From positions 232,031-296,030 of the forward strand of contig MU006107.1 of assembly GCA_010093705.1 (NCBI GenBank): a DNA stretch of 64,000 bases. The letters run 5' to 3'. Below are positions 5,586-26,856 of this stretch, in pieces. The DNA is from Patellaria atrata CBS 101060. Taxonomy: Eukaryota. The notes below the pieces were generated by a model. That model searched no databases. It had not been told where the DNA came from and saw only the letters and a program-made list of their open reading frames with translations. Each line of letters opens with the position of its first letter. Within the stretch, counting starts at the first letter, position 1. The position numbers were made by a program, and so were the translations under genes.

Positions 5586-7533
5586 TCAAGACGTCGCCTC
5601 TACGGTAGCAGGAGCAACTTGAGATGCGATCTCACCACCTGCTGATGTCTCCGCCCACGAGCCCCAAAGTCCTCTCTTCGCACGGATCCGTAATGGGCCA
5701 CCAAGCTGCGTACTCGATTGCTCAACCTTGATAGCATCCTTGGTTGCTAACACTAGACATTCAAAGAACATCTTAGTCGCATCCGATTTAGTCGTAGTAT
5801 CTTCAGGCAACATCTCTTGGAATAAAACACTGGTCTTCTGTCTTTGCGAGGGACTATCAGCTGCGCTCTCGCCAAACCGCTCGCGCAAGAGGTGTACAGC
5901 ATGTTTAGTACCCAATGATACTGGTCCACTGTCCGCCGGATGGAGAAGGGGCATGGTGGTATCGTCAAAATTATCAGGTAAGGGCGATAATGCTTCTTCG
6001 CTTTCGGCTCTGACAGGAGGAGAGCCAAGTTCTTCCTCGGGGGGAGCTGGAGGTTCATCTTCAAAACCATCCGCACTAGTAACATTGTTGTCACTCGCGG
6101 GCTCAGGCGGGGCAACAGTAAGTGCAACTTCGTCTTCCTCAATTTCCAATTGGGGCGTCTTTCCCGTTCTTGACTCGGCGTCCTCTTCGTCATCCATATC
6201 GGCAACACCACTATCGCGCTTCCTCTTGAGGTCCCGTGACCTTCGAACAACTTCGAGAGACAATATGCCTCTGAGCTCAGGAGCCCAACCTTGACTCCGG
6301 CCGTCACCGAGAATATTTGAAACAAAGCCTCCGGTTTTCTGCATGTTCATTAACGCTAAGAGCATGGGATCTCTGGGCAAGAATGATGGGGATTTGAGAA
6401 TATGAGATCGATCGTTTTGTTGAGCCCGGATCTGGGTAGAACCAATCTCCGTATTAGTATCGGCTTCAAGAACTTTGCGCCTTTTAGCCTTATGAGCTTG
6501 GTGTACAGATAGCTCTTCTTCTTCGGCGTCGACCGTGGTATTGTTCGGGTCCGGATGGAAAGATTCTTCAAGCTCGCGTTCAACGCTTGGTCTCAGTTCG
6601 GATAAAGGAGATAAAGAATCCCGCTCTCTGTCTCGAGGGGTTTGCGCAATTGTGTGTTCGGTATCCTCAGGAAGGAAATGGAAGTTGTCTGCACCACCCA
6701 TGACTACATCGTCATCAACATCCAGCTGCAAAGGATCTTCTATCTGCGGTAGAGCTGAAGGAGAACGGGGAGCAAGTTCAGTATCACCGAGGTCTAGTTC
6801 AAGGTCGTCGCCATCGTAAAGCCTCGTGCTCTCGTCCATCTCTTCAGCAAAAGTCCGCGGGGCGGGCGCCTCTCTCCCTTTTTCGATACTAATATCGTCC
6901 AAAGTAGGGCCATCTCCCAAGTCAAGCTCGAGCCCAAGATCATCTTCTAGTAGCTGTGGTTCCGATGAATGTGCGCGACCCTGCTCAATACTACCGGAGA
7001 GATACTGGCTCGAATCTAGATCAAGCAGATTCGGATCTGGTCGGGTGAGATCAATGTCTGAATCTTGAGAAAGAAGTAGGGACGGATCCATCAAGGGCGC
7101 AAGTAAGTCCGCTTCTGTCAGTGTATCTGGTAAAGTCAAACTGGCCGGGTTAGCTGTATGGGATTGTTCAGCTGGAAGATCGACATTTCCAGGTCTGAAA
7201 GCCTGTCAAAAGTTGGCACATTAGCATATACTCAAAAATTACATTGTAAGAAAGCTATTGGGTCCGTACTAGTTTAATCTTCATCAAGGCCTCGTTGCAA
7301 TCATCCAGCAAATAACGCGCCTTTCTACTATATATTCGCACAACACCAAGTAGTAGTTGACCACTCAGTCTTAGCGCCATCGGCGCCTGGCCTTGATCCA
7401 TGATTGCACCAACACTGCTCTCGATATTTGACTGTAGGATATTGCTTTTTGAGAGTTTGCGCTCGAGATTGGCGGCGAGCCAGACTCGGGCTAAGGGCCC
7501 TGTCTTCGACAGGAGGGTTTCTGAGTAGAACAT
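5586..7533 (-). CDS. RAD21: Cohesin kleisin subunit Rad21/Scc1/Mcd1; exons 7533-7270, 7202-5586
   Basis: MFYSETLLSKTGPLARVWLAAN and ALRLSGQLLLGVVRIYSRKARYLLDDC N-terminal domain; C-terminal winged helix ATKMFFECLVLATKDAIKVEQ; intron 7269-7203 joins KIKL|AFRPG. Confidence 0.95.
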
Positions 7534-20804: not shown

Positions 20805-21772
20805 ATGTGCGTTCTATCCTCCATACTCGATGCTCTGAGAGGTATCTTCACCGCATCCGAACCGCCCAAACCAGTGGTCTCAAACACCCCGAAAATCATT
20901 CACATAATCGGTACACAGCCCCTTTCCACTACCCCATCGCTCTACTCTATCTAACCCCCCCAAGTACTCCCGCAGCGGGTAAAGATGAGATATGCGTCCG
21001 CATGCGCGACGGCCTATTCCCTCTATCACATTTCCGTCGGCGACGTGCTCCGAGCCGCAAAAGCCGACCCTAATAACCCCGCCGGACGGGAAATCGCGGG
21101 ATACATGCAACGTGGAGAGTTGATCCCGCCCTCACTGTCGTACCCGCTGTTCAAGGAGAGGATTGAAGCGGAGGTGAGGAAGGGGGCAGGAAGGGTGCTG
21201 GAGGATTGGCTGCCGAGGGATGTGCGGCAGATGAGGACGTGGGAGAGCTTGGTGAGTGCGTATCTTACTTACGTATACTAAATACCCGGGAGAAAGTTGA
21301 TGTTGGGGGATGTAGGTTCAGCGGCCCGATCTGGTGCTCTGGGTTAACGCTCCGATTGAAGTCGCGAGGGAGGAGAATCGACGGATCCTCCTGAAACTGC
21401 AGACTGGTGAAACGGAGTGGGTTGAAGAGCGGCTGAGGGAGTTTGAGGAGGAGAGTGAGCCCTTATTGGCGGAGTATAGGAAGCAGAGAGTTCTTCTTGA
21501 GGTGAGTGCTTTGAGAAGGACTATCGTGCGGTTAATGCTAATGGTAGAAGATACCTAAGCGTATCACGATCGAAGAGTCGTATTGTATGGTTGTGAGTGC
21601 GTTATCGAAGGACAGACGATGGGCGAAGATTATTTTGGAGTCCCAGGGGCTCCTAGGGGTGGCGATGGATCGGCTGAGATGGGCATCTCCACTCGAACAT
21701 ATTGTACAGCAAACATCTAGATACTCCACTTACAGTTGCAAGAATAATGTATATTTCTGTAAAGATCTTTAG
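20805..21772 (+). pseudogene. Degenerate adenylate/UMP-CMP kinase-like gene (pseudogene or pseudo-kinase); exons approx. 20805-20910, 20965-21251, 21316-21501, 21548-21772
   Basis: KIIHIIG, YHISVGDVLR, GELIP, EDWLPRD (cf. DGFPR), ERLREFEEESEPLLAEY match the NMP-kinase pattern; the P-loop-like TPAAGKDEIC is in a different frame. Confidence 0.65.
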
Positions 21773-22662: not shown

Positions 22663-24342
22663 ATGTCTCCTTCTATAGCATTGAAATTACGGACTGCGAC
22701 ACACCTAAGCAGGTCCTCGTCATCAAGAGTATACGGAAACTCCAATTCTTCTACCTCAAAAGCTACTAATTACTATAGAATCTCTTACTCGTTCGCTCAT
22801 TCGCATCTACCGCCCGCCGTCATGAAATCAACAAGATCGTGTCCTCGGCGGAAGAAGCCATCAAAGACATGAAATCCAACAGTACCCTCCTGTGCGGTGG
22901 TTTCGGCCTCTGTGGCGTTCCAGATACCCTCATAAATCAAGTTCACAAGACTTCCTCTATAACGAGCCTTACCGCAGTCTCCAACAATGCAGGCGTAGTC
23001 GGCAAAGGACTAGGCTTGCTACTCGCGTCACGGCAAGTCAAAAAGATGATTGCAAGCTATGTGGGTGAGAACAAAGTATTTGAACAGATGTATCTAAGCG
23101 GTGAAATCGAGCTCGAGCTCACACCACAAGGTACGCTCGCGGAGCGATGTCGAGCCGGGGGTGCGGGTATCCCGGCCTTCTATACACCCGCCGCGTTCGG
23201 TACCGTTGTACAGACGGGTGAGCTGCCGCTTAAGCATAATAAGGATGGTACCGTGGCTGCATACTCGGCTCCGCGCGATGTTAAAGTGTTTGACGGGAAG
23301 TCGTACGTCATGGAAGAGGCTATTAAGGGCGACTATGCCTTCATAAAAGCGTGGAAAGCGGATCGCCTTGGCAATTGCATGTTTCGGTATGCGGCAGCGA
23401 ATTTTAACGGCGCAATGGCGCGAAATGCGAGGATGACAATTGTGGAGGCCGAAAATATCGTCGAACCTGGTGAGATTGACCCTGCTGCTGTTCACGTGCC
23501 AGGAATCTATGTCAAGCGCGTCATCCAGTCGACGGAAGAGAAACAGATCGAGAAGATCATCAACGCGAAGGATCCAAAGGAAGCTATGGGAGCAATGGGC
23601 TCAGGCGACACTGCAAACAAGCGGGAACGCATCGTTCGTCGCGCCGCGAAGGAGTTCAGGAATGGCATGTACGCGAACCTAGGGATCGGGATGCCGATGT
23701 TGGCGCCCAGTTTCGTTGACCCTTCCGTCGAAGTGCAACTACAATCCGAGAACGGGATCCTAGGACTTGGACCCTATCCTAAGAAAGGGCAAGAGGACCC
23801 CGACCTCATTAACGCGGGCAAGGAGACCGTCACGCTTCTACCTGGTGCCGCATGTTTCGGCTCTGACGAGTCTTTCGGCATGATCCGATCTGGCCGCATC
23901 GATCTGACCATCTTAGGCGCGATGCAAGTAAGCGCGAAGGGTGATCTGGCGAACTGGATGTTACCAGGAAAAATCAAAGGGTTCGGAGGAGCTATGGACC
24001 TGGTTAGCAATCCACAGTACACCAAAGTGGTTGTCACGATGGAACATACGGATAAGAAAGGTCGGCCGAAGATCCTGAAACAGTGCGAGTTCCCATTGAC
24101 CGGGAAGGCGTGTGTGAGCAGGATCATAACGGACTTAGTAAGTTTTGTTCACTTAATTGGCTGCCGGTTGGGGGGCTATCGGGTTCTATCATAACTGACG
24201 TATTGGGTAGTGTGTTTTTGATGTCGACTTTACGGATGGTTTAACGCTCGTAGAATTGGCGGACGGTGTAACGGTTGACGAGATCAAGGAGAAGACTGAG
24301 GCGCCATTTAACGTCTCAGATAATATCAAACCAATGTTGTAA
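22663..24342 (+). CDS. Mitochondrial succinyl-CoA:3-ketoacid CoA transferase (SCOT/OXCT-like); exons 22663-22728, 22779-24137, 24211-24342
   Basis: [39 protein letters not shown] (catalytic Glu), GGAMDLV; Arg/Ser-rich presequence. Confidence 0.95.
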
Positions 24343-24780
24343 ATGGACAATGTTTCTCTAGTACGGGAGTTACAGTGTGTATTCGTCAATTTTAGCGCGT
24401 CTAAGTTCGGTGACTGTACGCTTGCTGTATACACGGTGGCATATCGTCAAGTCTGCCCTCTGGTAAAATTTCACTAGTCTGTACTGCTATGTCAGGATCT
24501 TCCTGATGTTGTAAGTACAGTTGGCTACATACAACATCATCAGGGAAGGGTATCGTACATTTGGCTTACCTTTTCTCGCATTCATGTTGGGCGTTCCGGC
24601 GTATTGATTTCTAGTCTCAATCACCAGATACTGCAGCATGAAGTTTTCCCTGACCCCTTTAATCATCACATTATTTCTCATCAAGCATTCACCGCTCAAA
24701 CCCTTCGAGATGTCTTTCCATACATTCGGCAAAAGGATGTACTACCCTAAAACAGACCATACCCGGTCCATGCTCCGCCT

Positions 24781-25245
24781 AAAAAAGACGCACTCACCAC
24801 CCCATGCCACCCCCTCCCCCATCAACCTAATTCATCCACTTACTCGAAAAGCCCGCCGACATCTCCGCAAACCCTCAATTTTCGTCGAACATCTACGCTT
24901 TTAGCGCTTTTTTTGAACCCAGGACTACTGTTCTCTTCCTTAGTACGCCTAGTCTGTGCGCAGAATGTCCGTATTGCGCAATGTCCGTAATAGATGATCT
25001 ATGCTTCGCTCCGTCATCCCCAAGCGCAAAGGGGGTCAGTGCTTTCGGTCGCTACGGATAGTCTGTAGACTGTAACAGTCGGGTATCGGTTTTGAAAGGG
25101 TAAAGAGGGCCAAAACAGCGGACTAAGGAAAGTTTGGGCCACGTGGAGGATGCAGCTATCATCAGCCACCCGAAACACCGCGTTCGACGAAAAATCGAAA
25201 AAGTGTAGATCCCGCGGGTGGATGCGTTGATGGCGCCGGAACTGT
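24781..25245 (-). ncRNA. Candidate structured non-coding RNA (family not recognised)
   Basis: Several nested long-range complementary blocks, G-U-compatible mostly on the minus strand; TATATAAA at 25277-25270 upstream; T6 at 24786-24781 downstream; no credible ORF. Confidence 0.45.
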
Positions 25246-25336
25246 GCTGCTTGGGATGTCCGGGCGTCATTTATATATCATAGGGACCATATTCAATACC
25301 CAATCTTCTGGGTATACTTTTCCCCTCGAATCAAAC

Positions 25337-26338
25337 TCATCCCCTTCGGCCTCGCCCAACCCCAAACATATCCCTTACGCTCCCCTGCCCTCGTGCCGCG
25401 AGCTTCATAGGTGCAAATCGAGACTCCGGTTGCCGGATGCCTGCACGTAAACTTTCAATGACCCACTCCGCTGTTACGAACTTGACGCCCCGGCTGCGCA
25501 CACTAGTGATTTCCTTCTGCATCTTGGAACCTGCGAGGCCACCTCCAGCACCACAGCTATGGGCAGAGGATTGTCCGATAATGACGTGGGTGACGGACCG
25601 TCGAGTCAAAGAAATAGACATCAACGCACCGTGCGTAGCAAGCAAGTGTTTGAGTTTATGGTCGGAGATCACCGGCGACGTAGACCCGTTGATGTAGATT
25701 ACAAGGTTGTTGAAGAGTTTGGGATGTGCTGGTTGAGATATGGAGCTCGTCGTGGGAAGTTGCGCGGATGGCGGGATGGTGTCGAAGTCATCCGCTTCTT
25801 GTGGTCCTTTGTCGACGGTCGTGCTGCTGTCTCCCTTTACCACAGTCCGATGATCTGTCATACTATCCATCTTCACCCATTCCGGTATCTCTTCATCTTC
25901 CTCTTGCTCTTGCACACCCAACTTCTTCTCCTTTGTTCCCTCACCCACCGCCCCCTTCCTCACCTTACCCCCCATACTCTCCCATATACTCAACTGTCCG
26001 TCCTTCCTCAACTTACTCGCTCCCCGTTTCCAATTCCCATTGACTGATCTCCCATCCTTCCCAAAACTCTCGCTTCCTTCTCCCACCGTATCAGCAACTC
26101 TCTTCCCGTCCCCCGCTCCACCGGTAAATTGTGCACCTAGCTTCAAGTTCCGTGACGCATGCCACGACGTGCTACCAGCGATGGTGTTCTCCGCGCGCTG
26201 GTGGCCGAGCGAAACCGAGTTCCATGGATCAAAGATGTTGCGGGCGGGTTTTGCTGCACGGGTGACAGTTGGTTTCGGCTTCTTGCTGATGTTGATGGAG
26301 GATGAAGATGGATTGGTGGTGGGGTTAGAGTTTGGCAT
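25337..26338 (-). CDS. Stand-alone BRCT-domain protein (Rev1-type BRCT)
   Basis: LFNNLVIYINGST...LKHLLATHGA...VTHVII...VKFVTAEWVIESLRAG BRCT signature; N-terminal FDPWNS...GHQRAE block. Confidence 0.8.
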   Translation of the reverse strand: MPNSNPTTNPSSSSINISKKPKPTVTRAAKPARNIFDPWNSVSLGHQRAENTIAGSTSWHASRNLKLGAQFTGGAGDGKRVADTVGEGSESFGKDGRSVNGNWKRGASKLRKDGQLSIWESMGGKVRKGAVGEGTKEKKLGVQEQEEDEEIPEWVKMDSMTDHRTVVKGDSSTTVDKGPQEADDFDTIPPSAQLPTTSSISQPAHPKLFNNLVIYINGSTSPVISDHKLKHLLATHGALMSISLTRRSVTHVIIGQSSAHSCGAGGGLAGSKMQKEITSVRSRGVKFVTAEWVIESLRAGIRQPESRFAPMKLAARGQGSVRDMFGVGRGRRG

Positions 26339-26856
26339 CTTCGATCGTGGTTGACGGGAGGCGCTGAGGAGGGACGGGAGATCGACGTGGCGCGATTGCG
26401 TCAGATTTCGGCGGTGGAGACGCTCAGCGGCATGGGAGGTGTGCTGAGCAAATTCGATGGTTGACCGGCTGTGATTACGAGATGATGGGATGCCTTATGT
26501 TATGGTAAATATGTCTAGATCAAGTATGTTGGAGAAAGGAGAGTTTGGTACGAGGTGTAGCTGCTAATAAAGGGTTCGCGATTCGCGCTTGTTGCTAGGG
26601 GGAATGCAGGTGAATCGCCAAGTCACGGGTTGCTCATTCCGCGGTCACAGTTTCTCTGTCACGTCTGTGTACAAAGGGTTCAGGTAGCTTTTGTTGTTCA
26701 ATTTACTTCACATCGTCTATAGAATATAAGCCGATATATGGAGCTTGGTTTAATTTCAAGAGCTGCGTATCGATTAGTACGGTCGAATCTTTTTGAGACT
26801 TCGATCACAATTCAATTTCAGCCATGAAGACGAAGATAAGTTTGATAACTCAAACG

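What the first reader, a model, noticed from the sequence alone, without database searches (positions are those of the whole stretch)
24781..25277. Candidate ~450-nt highly structured non-coding RNA between SCOT and the BRCT gene
Seen, nested complementary blocks: 24819-24826/25226-25233 (8 bp), 24833-24839/25218-25224 (7 bp), 24879-24890/25182-25193 (perfect 12 bp), 24936-24948/25118-25130 (12 of 13). Flanking extensions pair through G-U mainly on the minus strand. A non-nested 12-nt pairing, 24891-24902/25199-25210, competes with the main rod (switch- or pseudoknot-like). There are internal hairpins (GACTGTTACAGTC), two CAGACUA and two UAGUCC motifs, and a CUGAUGA. TATATAAA lies ~35 nt upstream and T6 downstream on the minus strand. 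I found no U1-U6, U3, SRP, RNase P/MRP, telomerase-template or TPP motifs. Inference: an unannotated ncRNA, a milRNA precursor (Neurospora milRNAs are Pol III transcripts), a structured 3' UTR of the BRCT gene, or a decayed foldback element. Internal T5 runs argue somewhat against Pol III.
Basis: partly seen in the sequence, partly recalled or inferred. Interest (0 to 1): 0.75.

Follow-up and report, generated by a model that had tools for sequence, protein, structure and literature searches.

The report
Rod-shaped orphan RNA candidate, unproven
A gene-free stretch between two converging genes of a filamentous fungus carries real, more-than-chance long-range complementary blocks that could close a ~430-base RNA of no known family, but it is not unusually stable overall and could equally be an old transposon-type inverted repeat.

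Summary
The complementary blocks are at the stated coordinates and exceed chance: their nested-stem score was reached by 0 of 3000 shuffles, 1 of 3000 composition-preserving shuffles and 4 of 966 real tiles. The other high tiles are a transposon end and a RIP-like inverted repeat. 'Highly structured' is not confirmed: folding z is -0.2 (+) and -0.7 (-). The minus-strand G-U bias is not confirmed. The 'switch' helix is unpopulated in the ensemble and copies a motif 30 nt upstream. One match in the genome, no RIP signal, no convincing TSD, no Rfam hit. MRP and SRP lie elsewhere; telomerase, RNase P, snR30, C/D, H/ACA and tRNA tests were not met. Internal T5/T7 runs argue against Pol III. No homologue or RNA data could be had, and the scan has not noted this on other DNA (20, 96). 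Best reading (0.38): a stand-alone Pol II RNA whose ends are clamped by a rod around a ~290-nt domain, strand undecided. Rivals: transposon/foldback relic (0.27), structured 3' UTR (0.15), chance (0.10), divergent known RNA (0.10).

The parts
25270..25277 (-). Consensus TATA box, 59 nt past the BRCT stop; candidate promoter, or an AT-rich 3'-end signal of the BRCT gene
   Evidence: 150 such sites in 264 kb of this genome, both strands
25231..25248 (-). Candidate Pol II start zone (CA dinucleotides 29-46 nt from the TATA box), at the base of the rod
   Evidence: spacing rule from A. nidulans, PMC4046813 passages; inferred
24787..24791 (.). H0 left strand (5 bp, pairs 25264-25268); starts 1 nt from the TATA box, so outside a TATA-driven RNA
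24819..24826 (.). H1 left strand (8 bp, pairs 25226-25233); candidate terminal clamp
   Evidence: pair probability 0.99 on both strands
24833..24839 (.). H2 left strand (7 bp, pairs 25218-25224)
   Evidence: probability 0.77 (+), 0.96 (-)
24879..24890 (.). H3 left strand (perfect 12 bp, pairs 25182-25193); closes the ~290-nt interior
   Evidence: probability 0.94 (+), 0.83 (-)
24891..24902 (+). Non-nested block (pairs 25199-25210); near copy of 24859-24868; alternative register or pseudoknot candidate
24908..24914 (+). T7 run: would stop Pol III on +; U-tract for a second alternative pairing with 25198-25206
24936..24948 (.). H4 left strand (12 of 13, pairs 25118-25130)
   Evidence: probability 0.55 (+), 0.00 (-)
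24949..25117 (.). Interior with short hairpins, a 10-nt direct repeat (24964, 24980) and an 8-nt direct repeat (24950, 25059); folding at background level
25118..25130 (.). H4 right strand
25182..25210 (.). H3 right strand, two A5 tracts (25190-94, 25198-202; T5 runs on minus) and partner of the non-nested block
25218..25233 (.). H2 and H1 right strands
24781..24786 (-). T6 run on minus; on + an A-rich element 40 nt before the left end of the rod

Best explanation
A single-copy, stand-alone non-coding RNA gene of no described family between two convergent genes. Most likely working: Pol II starts 30-45 nt from the TATA box (25248-25231, minus strand; about 55:45 over a plus-strand RNA starting near 24821) and makes a 410-460-nt RNA whose two ends pair (H1, H2), which shields them from exonucleases. 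The 12-bp helix H3 closes a ~290-nt loosely folded interior that is held out as a protein-binding domain, so the RNA acts as a scaffold of a ribonucleoprotein, not as a guide or ribozyme. U- and A-tracts beside H3 could add a pseudoknot with U.A-U triples once protein is bound. Shown: the blocks, their excess over chance, copy number, the motifs. Inferred: transcription, strand, polymerase, ends, pseudoknot, scaffold role.
For: Nested stems beyond chance. Perfect blocks separated by unrelated sequence (identity outside runs 0.55 against 0.62 for unrelated controls; transitions 30% of mismatches); 0 of 2112 score-matched simulations of uniform decay gave such runs. Arm duplex z -4.8/-3.5, against -2.7 for this genome's SRP helix 5 (arms chosen after the fact). 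One match in G000, no RIP signal, best TA-flanked terminal match only 9 of 14. TATA box at the spacing reported for A. nidulans. No coding signal: 0 Pfam families for 4 frames, no Atlas hit at 0.9 for the 72-aa ORF.
Against: Whole-region folding no better than shuffles, whereas the MRP control gives z -1.95. True RNAs of this genome score low on the perfect-stem measure (MRP 5, SRP 7) while transposon-derived repeats score 16-20, so the measure favours DNA-type repeats. Weak symmetry runs on past the TATA box and T6 (153 of 3890 tiles), and H0 starts 1 nt from the TATA box. No Sm site, A or B box, H/ACA or canonical C/D layout. No conserved relative found in the three BRCT loci obtained.
Confidence: 0.38

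Rival explanations
1. A DNA-level relic: an old non-autonomous transposon or foldback with patchy inverted arms, inserted or formed in a convergent intergenic gap, with no function of its own (read-through might make hairpin RNA for siRNAs).
For: The only other loci reaching the score in 966 tiles are the end of a pogo/Fot1-type element (HTH_psq ORF; self-inverted 68% over 290 nt) and a RIP-like inverted repeat, so patchy inverted blocks do arise from transposons here. Arms are colinear over ~170 nt (98 identities); weak symmetry extends outward; TA flanks both ends at 24782/25273; folding z near 0; short local duplications inside.
Against: One match in the genome (BLAST-type search would miss very old copies), no RIP signal, terminal match only 9 of 14, three 7-bp flanking repeats at about the number expected by chance, and uniform decay does not give the blocks.
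Confidence: 0.27
2. A long-range structure in an extended 3' UTR of the BRCT mRNA (minus) or the SCOT mRNA (plus) that sets poly(A)-site choice or mRNA stability, possibly with a U-rich loop catching the poly(A) tail as ENE elements do.
For: The rod starts ~70-100 nt past the BRCT stop; conserved 3' UTR structures of 48-170 nt are described in Pezizomycotina and yeasts (PMC8216456); fungal ENE motifs exist (PMC12501189 passage). Internal T runs are no obstacle for Pol II.
Against: None of 3 related BRCT loci has a similar element downstream (score at most 10 in the 1.2 kb scanned) or the SCOT neighbour; the loop opposite the 5' U-tract has only three U.
Confidence: 0.15
3. A chance cluster of short complements picked from 64 kb, helped by a C-rich left and G-rich right half.
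For: About 128 independent tiles per window; at 1 in 3000 this gives roughly 0.04 per window; the score was built after the fact; overall folding is ordinary.
Against: Block shuffles keep the skew and still give 1 of 3000; 0 of 3894 real tiles match the core; a TATA box sits at the expected distance.
Confidence: 0.1
4. A very divergent member of a known class that Rfam misses: a compact telomerase RNA core (enclosing helices, an 11-nt template-like stretch at 24868-24878, a U/A-tract pseudoknot, all on +), RNase P RNA (P4-like pairing 25127-38/25299-307 on +), an orphan C/D RNA precursor, or a Pol III milRNA precursor.
For: Neither the telomerase nor the RNase P model found any gene in G000 (both searches weak). 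The + strand order of helices and U/A tracts resembles vertebrate telomerase RNA (recalled), and a NUNGN-loop hairpin lies at 25058.
Against: Telomerase: the pseudoknot junction would hold a 270-nt insert, where PMC3592445 reports none in filamentous fungi; no canonical template core inside; no branch point after the minus-strand donor; NUNGN hairpins occur 5 times in 2.3 kb; predicted repeat not found as an array. RNase P: my descriptor fires at 222 sites per 400 kb and misses the MRP control; Rfam silent on 236 nt; the putative P3 folds worse than 95 of 100 shuffles. C/D: no rRNA complement above background.
Confidence: 0.1

Closest known systems
SRP RNA (Fungi_SRP, RF01502) and RNase MRP RNA (RF00030) of the same genome
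   Same: Size class (282 and 469 nt), C-rich 5' arm pairing with a G-rich 3' arm, a T run after the 3' end and an A-rich element ~50 nt upstream.
   Different: Both genes are found elsewhere; they hold at most T4 inside and end in T7 and T10, while this element holds two T5 (minus) or T7 (plus) inside; no model match here.
Pezizomycotina telomerase RNA core (Qi et al. PMC3592445; Kuprys et al. PMC3603654)
   Same: Core-enclosing helices around a U-tract/A-tract pseudoknot candidate; on minus a U5-GAU-U-tract arrangement like the Aspergillus CS3 loop.
   Different: About 2 kb in known cases against a 1-kb gap here; no canonical template, junction insert of 270 nt, no P6/P6.1 of the Aspergillus type, no Sm site plus donor plus branch point.
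Unclassified intergenic and 3' UTR structures of Pezizomycotina (Gao et al. PMC8216456; Afu ncRNAs, PMC2377427)
   Same: Single-copy, intergenic, no Rfam family; some Afu RNAs run at 300-600 nt on Northern blots.
   Different: Those have covariation or expression support; the 17 structures are 48-343 nt and none is described beside SCOT or this BRCT gene in the sections read; their alignments could not be opened.
pogo/Fot1-type transposon ends and MITE-like foldbacks
   Same: Patchy, colinear inverted blocks over 150-300 nt with ordinary folding energy; TA at both flanks.
   Different: No transposase remnant, no second copy, no clean terminal repeat, no RIP signal.

Membership tests
Any Rfam family | Covariance-model match | tested here: not met
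   0 hits at E<=10 for 23500-26800, 24700-25340, 24750-25110; 3 hits of 13 bits, far under their cut-offs, for 25095-25330; 0 at gathering score in the window
Pezizomycotina telomerase RNA | Single-stranded template with the CCCUAA core, 1.5 repeats | tested here: not met
   Only core hexamer is at 24745, outside the rod and not 1.5 repeats
Pezizomycotina telomerase RNA | Template matches the genome's telomere repeat | tested here: inconclusive
   No telomeric array at 40 ends of the 20 largest contigs or 19 starts of small ones; pattern searches gave only internal 2-3-copy matches for both the canonical and the predicted repeat
Pezizomycotina telomerase RNA | Pseudoknot with PK1 and PK2 contiguous and U.A-U triples at the junction | tested here: not met
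   On + the junction holds ~270 nt; on - the A tract lies 8-10 bp from the junction and the PK1 candidate has probability 0.00
Pezizomycotina telomerase RNA | P6/P6.1 three-way junction 3' of the core | tested here: not met
   One NUNGN hairpin at 25058, inside the core, at background frequency; no Aspergillus-type P6.1 by eye
Pezizomycotina telomerase RNA | 3' module: Sm site, 5' splice site, branch point | tested here: not met
   Donor at 24843 (minus) but no Sm site and no branch point downstream to 24650
RNase P RNA (RF00009) | P4 pseudoknot (CR-I, CR-V) with P1-P3 | tested here: inconclusive
   A P1-P4-like set exists on + but at background rate (222 sites per 400 kb, 21 with a similar CR-I) and it crosses H1-H3
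RNase P RNA (RF00009) | CR-II, CR-III, CR-IV and model match | tested here: not met
   No model hit on 236 nt; putative S-domain z +0.5, P3 z +1.5
RNase MRP RNA / SRP RNA | Model match; single gene per genome | tested here: not met
   Genes found at C4 (103 bits) and C2 (121 bits)
snR30/U17 | m1 and m2 motifs | tested here: not met
   Absent on both strands (motifs from PMC7601244 Table 1)
Box C/D snoRNA | RUGAUGA and CUGA at the ends, with a guide of 10 nt or more to rRNA | tested here: not met
   C-like box lacks the purine; longest rRNA complement 11 nt, as in 40 random windows (10-13 nt), none next to a D box; snRNA and tRNA targets not tested
Box H/ACA snoRNA | Hairpin-H box hinge-hairpin-ACA 3 nt from the end | tested here: not met
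   H-like and ACA motifs lie inside the rod, none at a candidate end
Pol III gene / milRNA precursor | A and B boxes, no internal terminator | tested here: not met
   No A or B box by pattern (the B-box pattern also missed MRP and SRP); two T5 (minus) and T7 (plus) inside; no tRNA
Pol III gene / milRNA precursor | Phased small-RNA reads from one stem | not testable with these tools
   No RNA run listed
MITE / foldback transposon | Many dispersed copies | tested here: not met
   1 match in G000 at E<=10; old copies could be missed
MITE / foldback transposon | Terminal inverted repeats with target-site duplication | tested here: inconclusive
   TA-flanked ends 24782/25273 match 9 of 14
Conserved structured ncRNA | Covariation among homologues and a discrete transcript | not testable with these tools
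   No homologue obtained; only DNA runs

The most novel reading that the evidence does not exclude
A ~430-nt fungal RNA of a new class whose ends are clamped by a rod and whose core is a telomerase-like triple-helix pseudoknot (24879-24914 with 25180-25210 on +) carrying a 270-nt domain inserted at the helix junction, switching between the nested and the pseudoknotted fold; in the boldest form a compact, template-bearing paralogue of telomerase RNA.
Probability: 0.08. Interest if true: 0.8.

Novelty: new member of a known kind. Interest (0 to 1): 0.35.

Why it matters
Filamentous fungi have few classified mid-size RNAs, and screens so far started from five model genomes (PMC8216456), so a 430-nt RNA outside Rfam would add a class or a missing divergent member of an essential one. 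If it is a relic, it is a useful warning: perfect long-range stems with ordinary folding energy point to transposon DNA as often as to RNA in this genome.

Tried and rejected
Expression: no RNA holder listed; the two runs laid were DNA contigs with no spliced joints; no evidence either way. Relatives: none held for this genome; the one metagenome scan, spent on the BRCT protein, gave 3 loci from 81 candidates, none with SCOT or the element; two short colinear matches in L004 lie in coding-like sequence and were dropped as chance. Exact-pattern scans gave 1 viral and 2 bacterial matches that do not extend beyond 18-22 nt; SCOT has no relative in the viral contigs. Telomerase on either strand, RNase P, snR30, C/D, H/ACA, tRNA: see membership. 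Hammerhead: the box-C-like heptamer has no matching stems II and III by eye, and Rfam is silent. A pattern search for the true telomerase pseudoknot found nothing but omitted a bulge seen afterwards in the Aspergillus alignment, so it is uninformative. Seven sites of a recalled RNase P motif gave no Rfam hit. The snR30 model found nothing in G000 (weak). A 65-nt intron 24843-24779 (minus) has donor and acceptor but no branch point. Strand calling by duplex energy failed on the SRP control. Small ORFs: no Pfam family, no Atlas lead. The bacterial promoter scan is not relevant to a fungus. Paper searches showed no description of this element; the library is incomplete and the supplement of PMC8216456 could not be read.

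Full report
Setting. The element lies in the ~1-kb gap between two convergent genes: a CoA-transferase (SCOT; PF01144, stop 24340-24342, +) and a BRCT-domain gene (PF00533, stop 25339-25337, -). The named best relatives of the BRCT protein are mostly Dothideomycetes. The window is G000:C19; a DNA search of G000 with 24700-25340 returned only this place at E<=10.

The observation. To ask whether nested long-range stems exceed chance I scored the best nested chain of perfect stems of 7 bp or more (a measure made after seeing the element). The score of 16 was reached by 0 of 3000 dinucleotide shuffles, by 1 of 3000 in each of three block shuffles that keep the C-rich left and G-rich right halves, and by 4 of 966 real tiles from the window and 20 other 10-kb pieces, after tiles with N, low complexity or GC outside 40-62% were left out. 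The core 24819-24890/25182-25233 was matched by 0 of 3894 real tiles of the same geometry; the inner part is at background (2480 of 3855) and the flanks outside the TATA box and T6 are marginal (153 of 3890).

What did not hold. The region is not unusually stable: z -0.18 (+) and -0.69 (-), -1.5 at best after trimming; the genome's MRP RNA gives -1.95. The strand argument fails: arm duplex z is -4.8 on + and -3.5 on -, and the SRP control gives -2.7 on both strands, so the test cannot call a strand. H4 forms on + (0.55) but not on - (0.00). The proposed switch helix is unpopulated on both strands, 3.8 kcal/mol above the minimum when forced, and its left strand repeats 24859-24868 in 9 of 10 letters, so a local duplication can explain it; nested-fold programs cannot score it as a pseudoknot.

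Known RNA classes. Four E-value scans of the locus and one of the window gave no credible Rfam hit; ARAGORN found no tRNA. MRP and SRP genes lie on other contigs. They hold at most T4 inside and end in T7 and T10, whereas the element holds two T5 on minus and T7 on plus, which argues against one Pol III transcript or milRNA precursor on either strand. snR30 motifs m1 and m2 are absent. Complements to the genome's own rRNA unit reach 11 nt, as in 40 random windows. Telomerase RNA was pursued on both strands because U- and A-tracts flank H3. On + the order of enclosing helices, an 11-nt template-like stretch (24868-24878) and a U/A pseudoknot recalls vertebrate telomerase RNA (recalled), but the junction would hold 270 nt where filamentous fungi have none (PMC3592445). 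On - the U-tract arrangement resembles the Aspergillus CS3 loop (PMC3603654 Fig. S3) but no template, three-way junction, Sm site or branch point follows. No telomeric arrays were seen at 59 contig ends or by pattern, so the template test stays open. Scan notes propose several other telomerase loci in this genome (unchecked), which lowers this reading and shows how easily it arises. A P1-P4-like set on + suggested RNase P, whose model found no gene in G000, but the descriptor fires at 222 sites in 400 kb and misses the MRP control, Rfam is silent on the 236-nt core, and the implied domains fold no better than shuffles.

RNA or relic. The arms align colinearly (98 identities, 56 mismatches). 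Uniform decay of an inverted repeat gave perfect runs of this extent in 0 of 2112 score-matched simulations out of 10,000; identity outside the runs (0.55) is no higher than for unrelated sequence (0.62), and transitions are 30% of mismatches. This pattern is what selection on helices leaves. There is no RIP signal and no convincing terminal repeat or target-site duplication. Against this, the two other loci that reach the score are a pogo/Fot1-type transposon end and a RIP-like inverted repeat, while MRP and SRP score 5 and 7: patchy inverted blocks with ordinary folding energy are also a transposon signature here. The TATA box lies 36 nt outside H1, with CA dinucleotides 29-46 nt from it, the spacing reported for A. 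nidulans (PMC4046813); such boxes occur once per 3.5 kb of strand and 4 of 150 have a T6 440-540 nt on. It may instead be a 3'-end signal of the BRCT gene (inference), and H0 begins 1 nt from it.

Missing evidence. No homologue was obtained: no relatives are held, 3 related BRCT loci lack SCOT and the element, pattern scans gave chance matches, and the scan holds no look-alike. The two runs that hold the stretch are DNA. Covariation and expression are untested.

Verdict. A real, single-copy long-range complementary rod. Best reading (0.38): a stand-alone Pol II RNA of 410-460 nt with clamped ends and a ~290-nt interior that serves as a protein scaffold; only the blocks, their rarity and the motifs are shown. 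Rivals: transposon or foldback relic 0.27, structured 3' UTR 0.15, chance 0.10, divergent known RNA 0.10. It is filed in no family. Interest 0.35.

Papers seen. PMC3592445: parts 2-5 of 7, supplement listed, not read. PMC3603654: passages, part 4 of 6, Fig. S3 whole, Fig. S1 parts 2-3 of 3 and passages. PMC8216456: parts 3-5 of 9; supplement unreadable, and it may hold a relative. PMC1636426: passages and one section. PMC5640933, PMC1796607, PMC2780460, PMC7601244, PMC2377427, PMC2996960, PMC4046813, PMC12501189, PMC5175330: passages only. Consensus words for Sm, A/B boxes, splice sites, C/D boxes and the hammerhead core, and the vertebrate telomerase layout, are recalled.

Noticed in passing
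window 24497-24550: The most stable local hairpin of the gap lies outside the finding, ~160 nt past the SCOT stop: arms 24504-24517/24526-24539, 13 of 14; z -3.4 to -4.2 in 80-nt windows on + but -1.9 in a 91-nt window. Possible SCOT 3' UTR element.
   Followed up: partly
window 24843-24779 (minus): A consensus splice donor and a T-rich acceptor 65 nt apart with no branch point; a second donor-like word at 24797.
   Followed up: partly
window 25295-25315: A 7-bp hairpin 20-40 nt past the BRCT stop; its arm sequence recurs at 24759-24764, and a 7-nt direct repeat flanks 24762-25284.
   Followed up: partly
L005:1501-1969 (G000:C4:603070-603538) and L008 (G000:C2:1863209-1863490): RNase MRP RNA (469 nt, long P10) and SRP RNA genes, both ending in T runs.
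   Followed up: yes
G000, whole genome: RF00009 (RNase P), RF02462 (telomerase) and RF01271 (snR30) found no gene; the searches score few candidates, so these essential RNAs are unlocated, not absent.
   Followed up: partly
L099:9009-9285: End of a pogo/Fot1-type element forming a 290-nt degenerate palindrome (68%) that overlaps the start of an HTH_psq ORF, with a perfect 28-nt inverted match at 7307-7334.
   Followed up: partly
L062 (G000:C114) and L063 (G000:C6:750437-750703): A second, fragmented SSU rRNA match on a small contig and a 270-nt SSU fragment inside a large contig; organellar, foreign or pseudogenic.
   Followed up: no
window 20955-21558: ORF pieces that look like an adenylate/UMP-CMP kinase between the allantoinase-like gene and SCOT (names recalled, not searched).
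   Followed up: no
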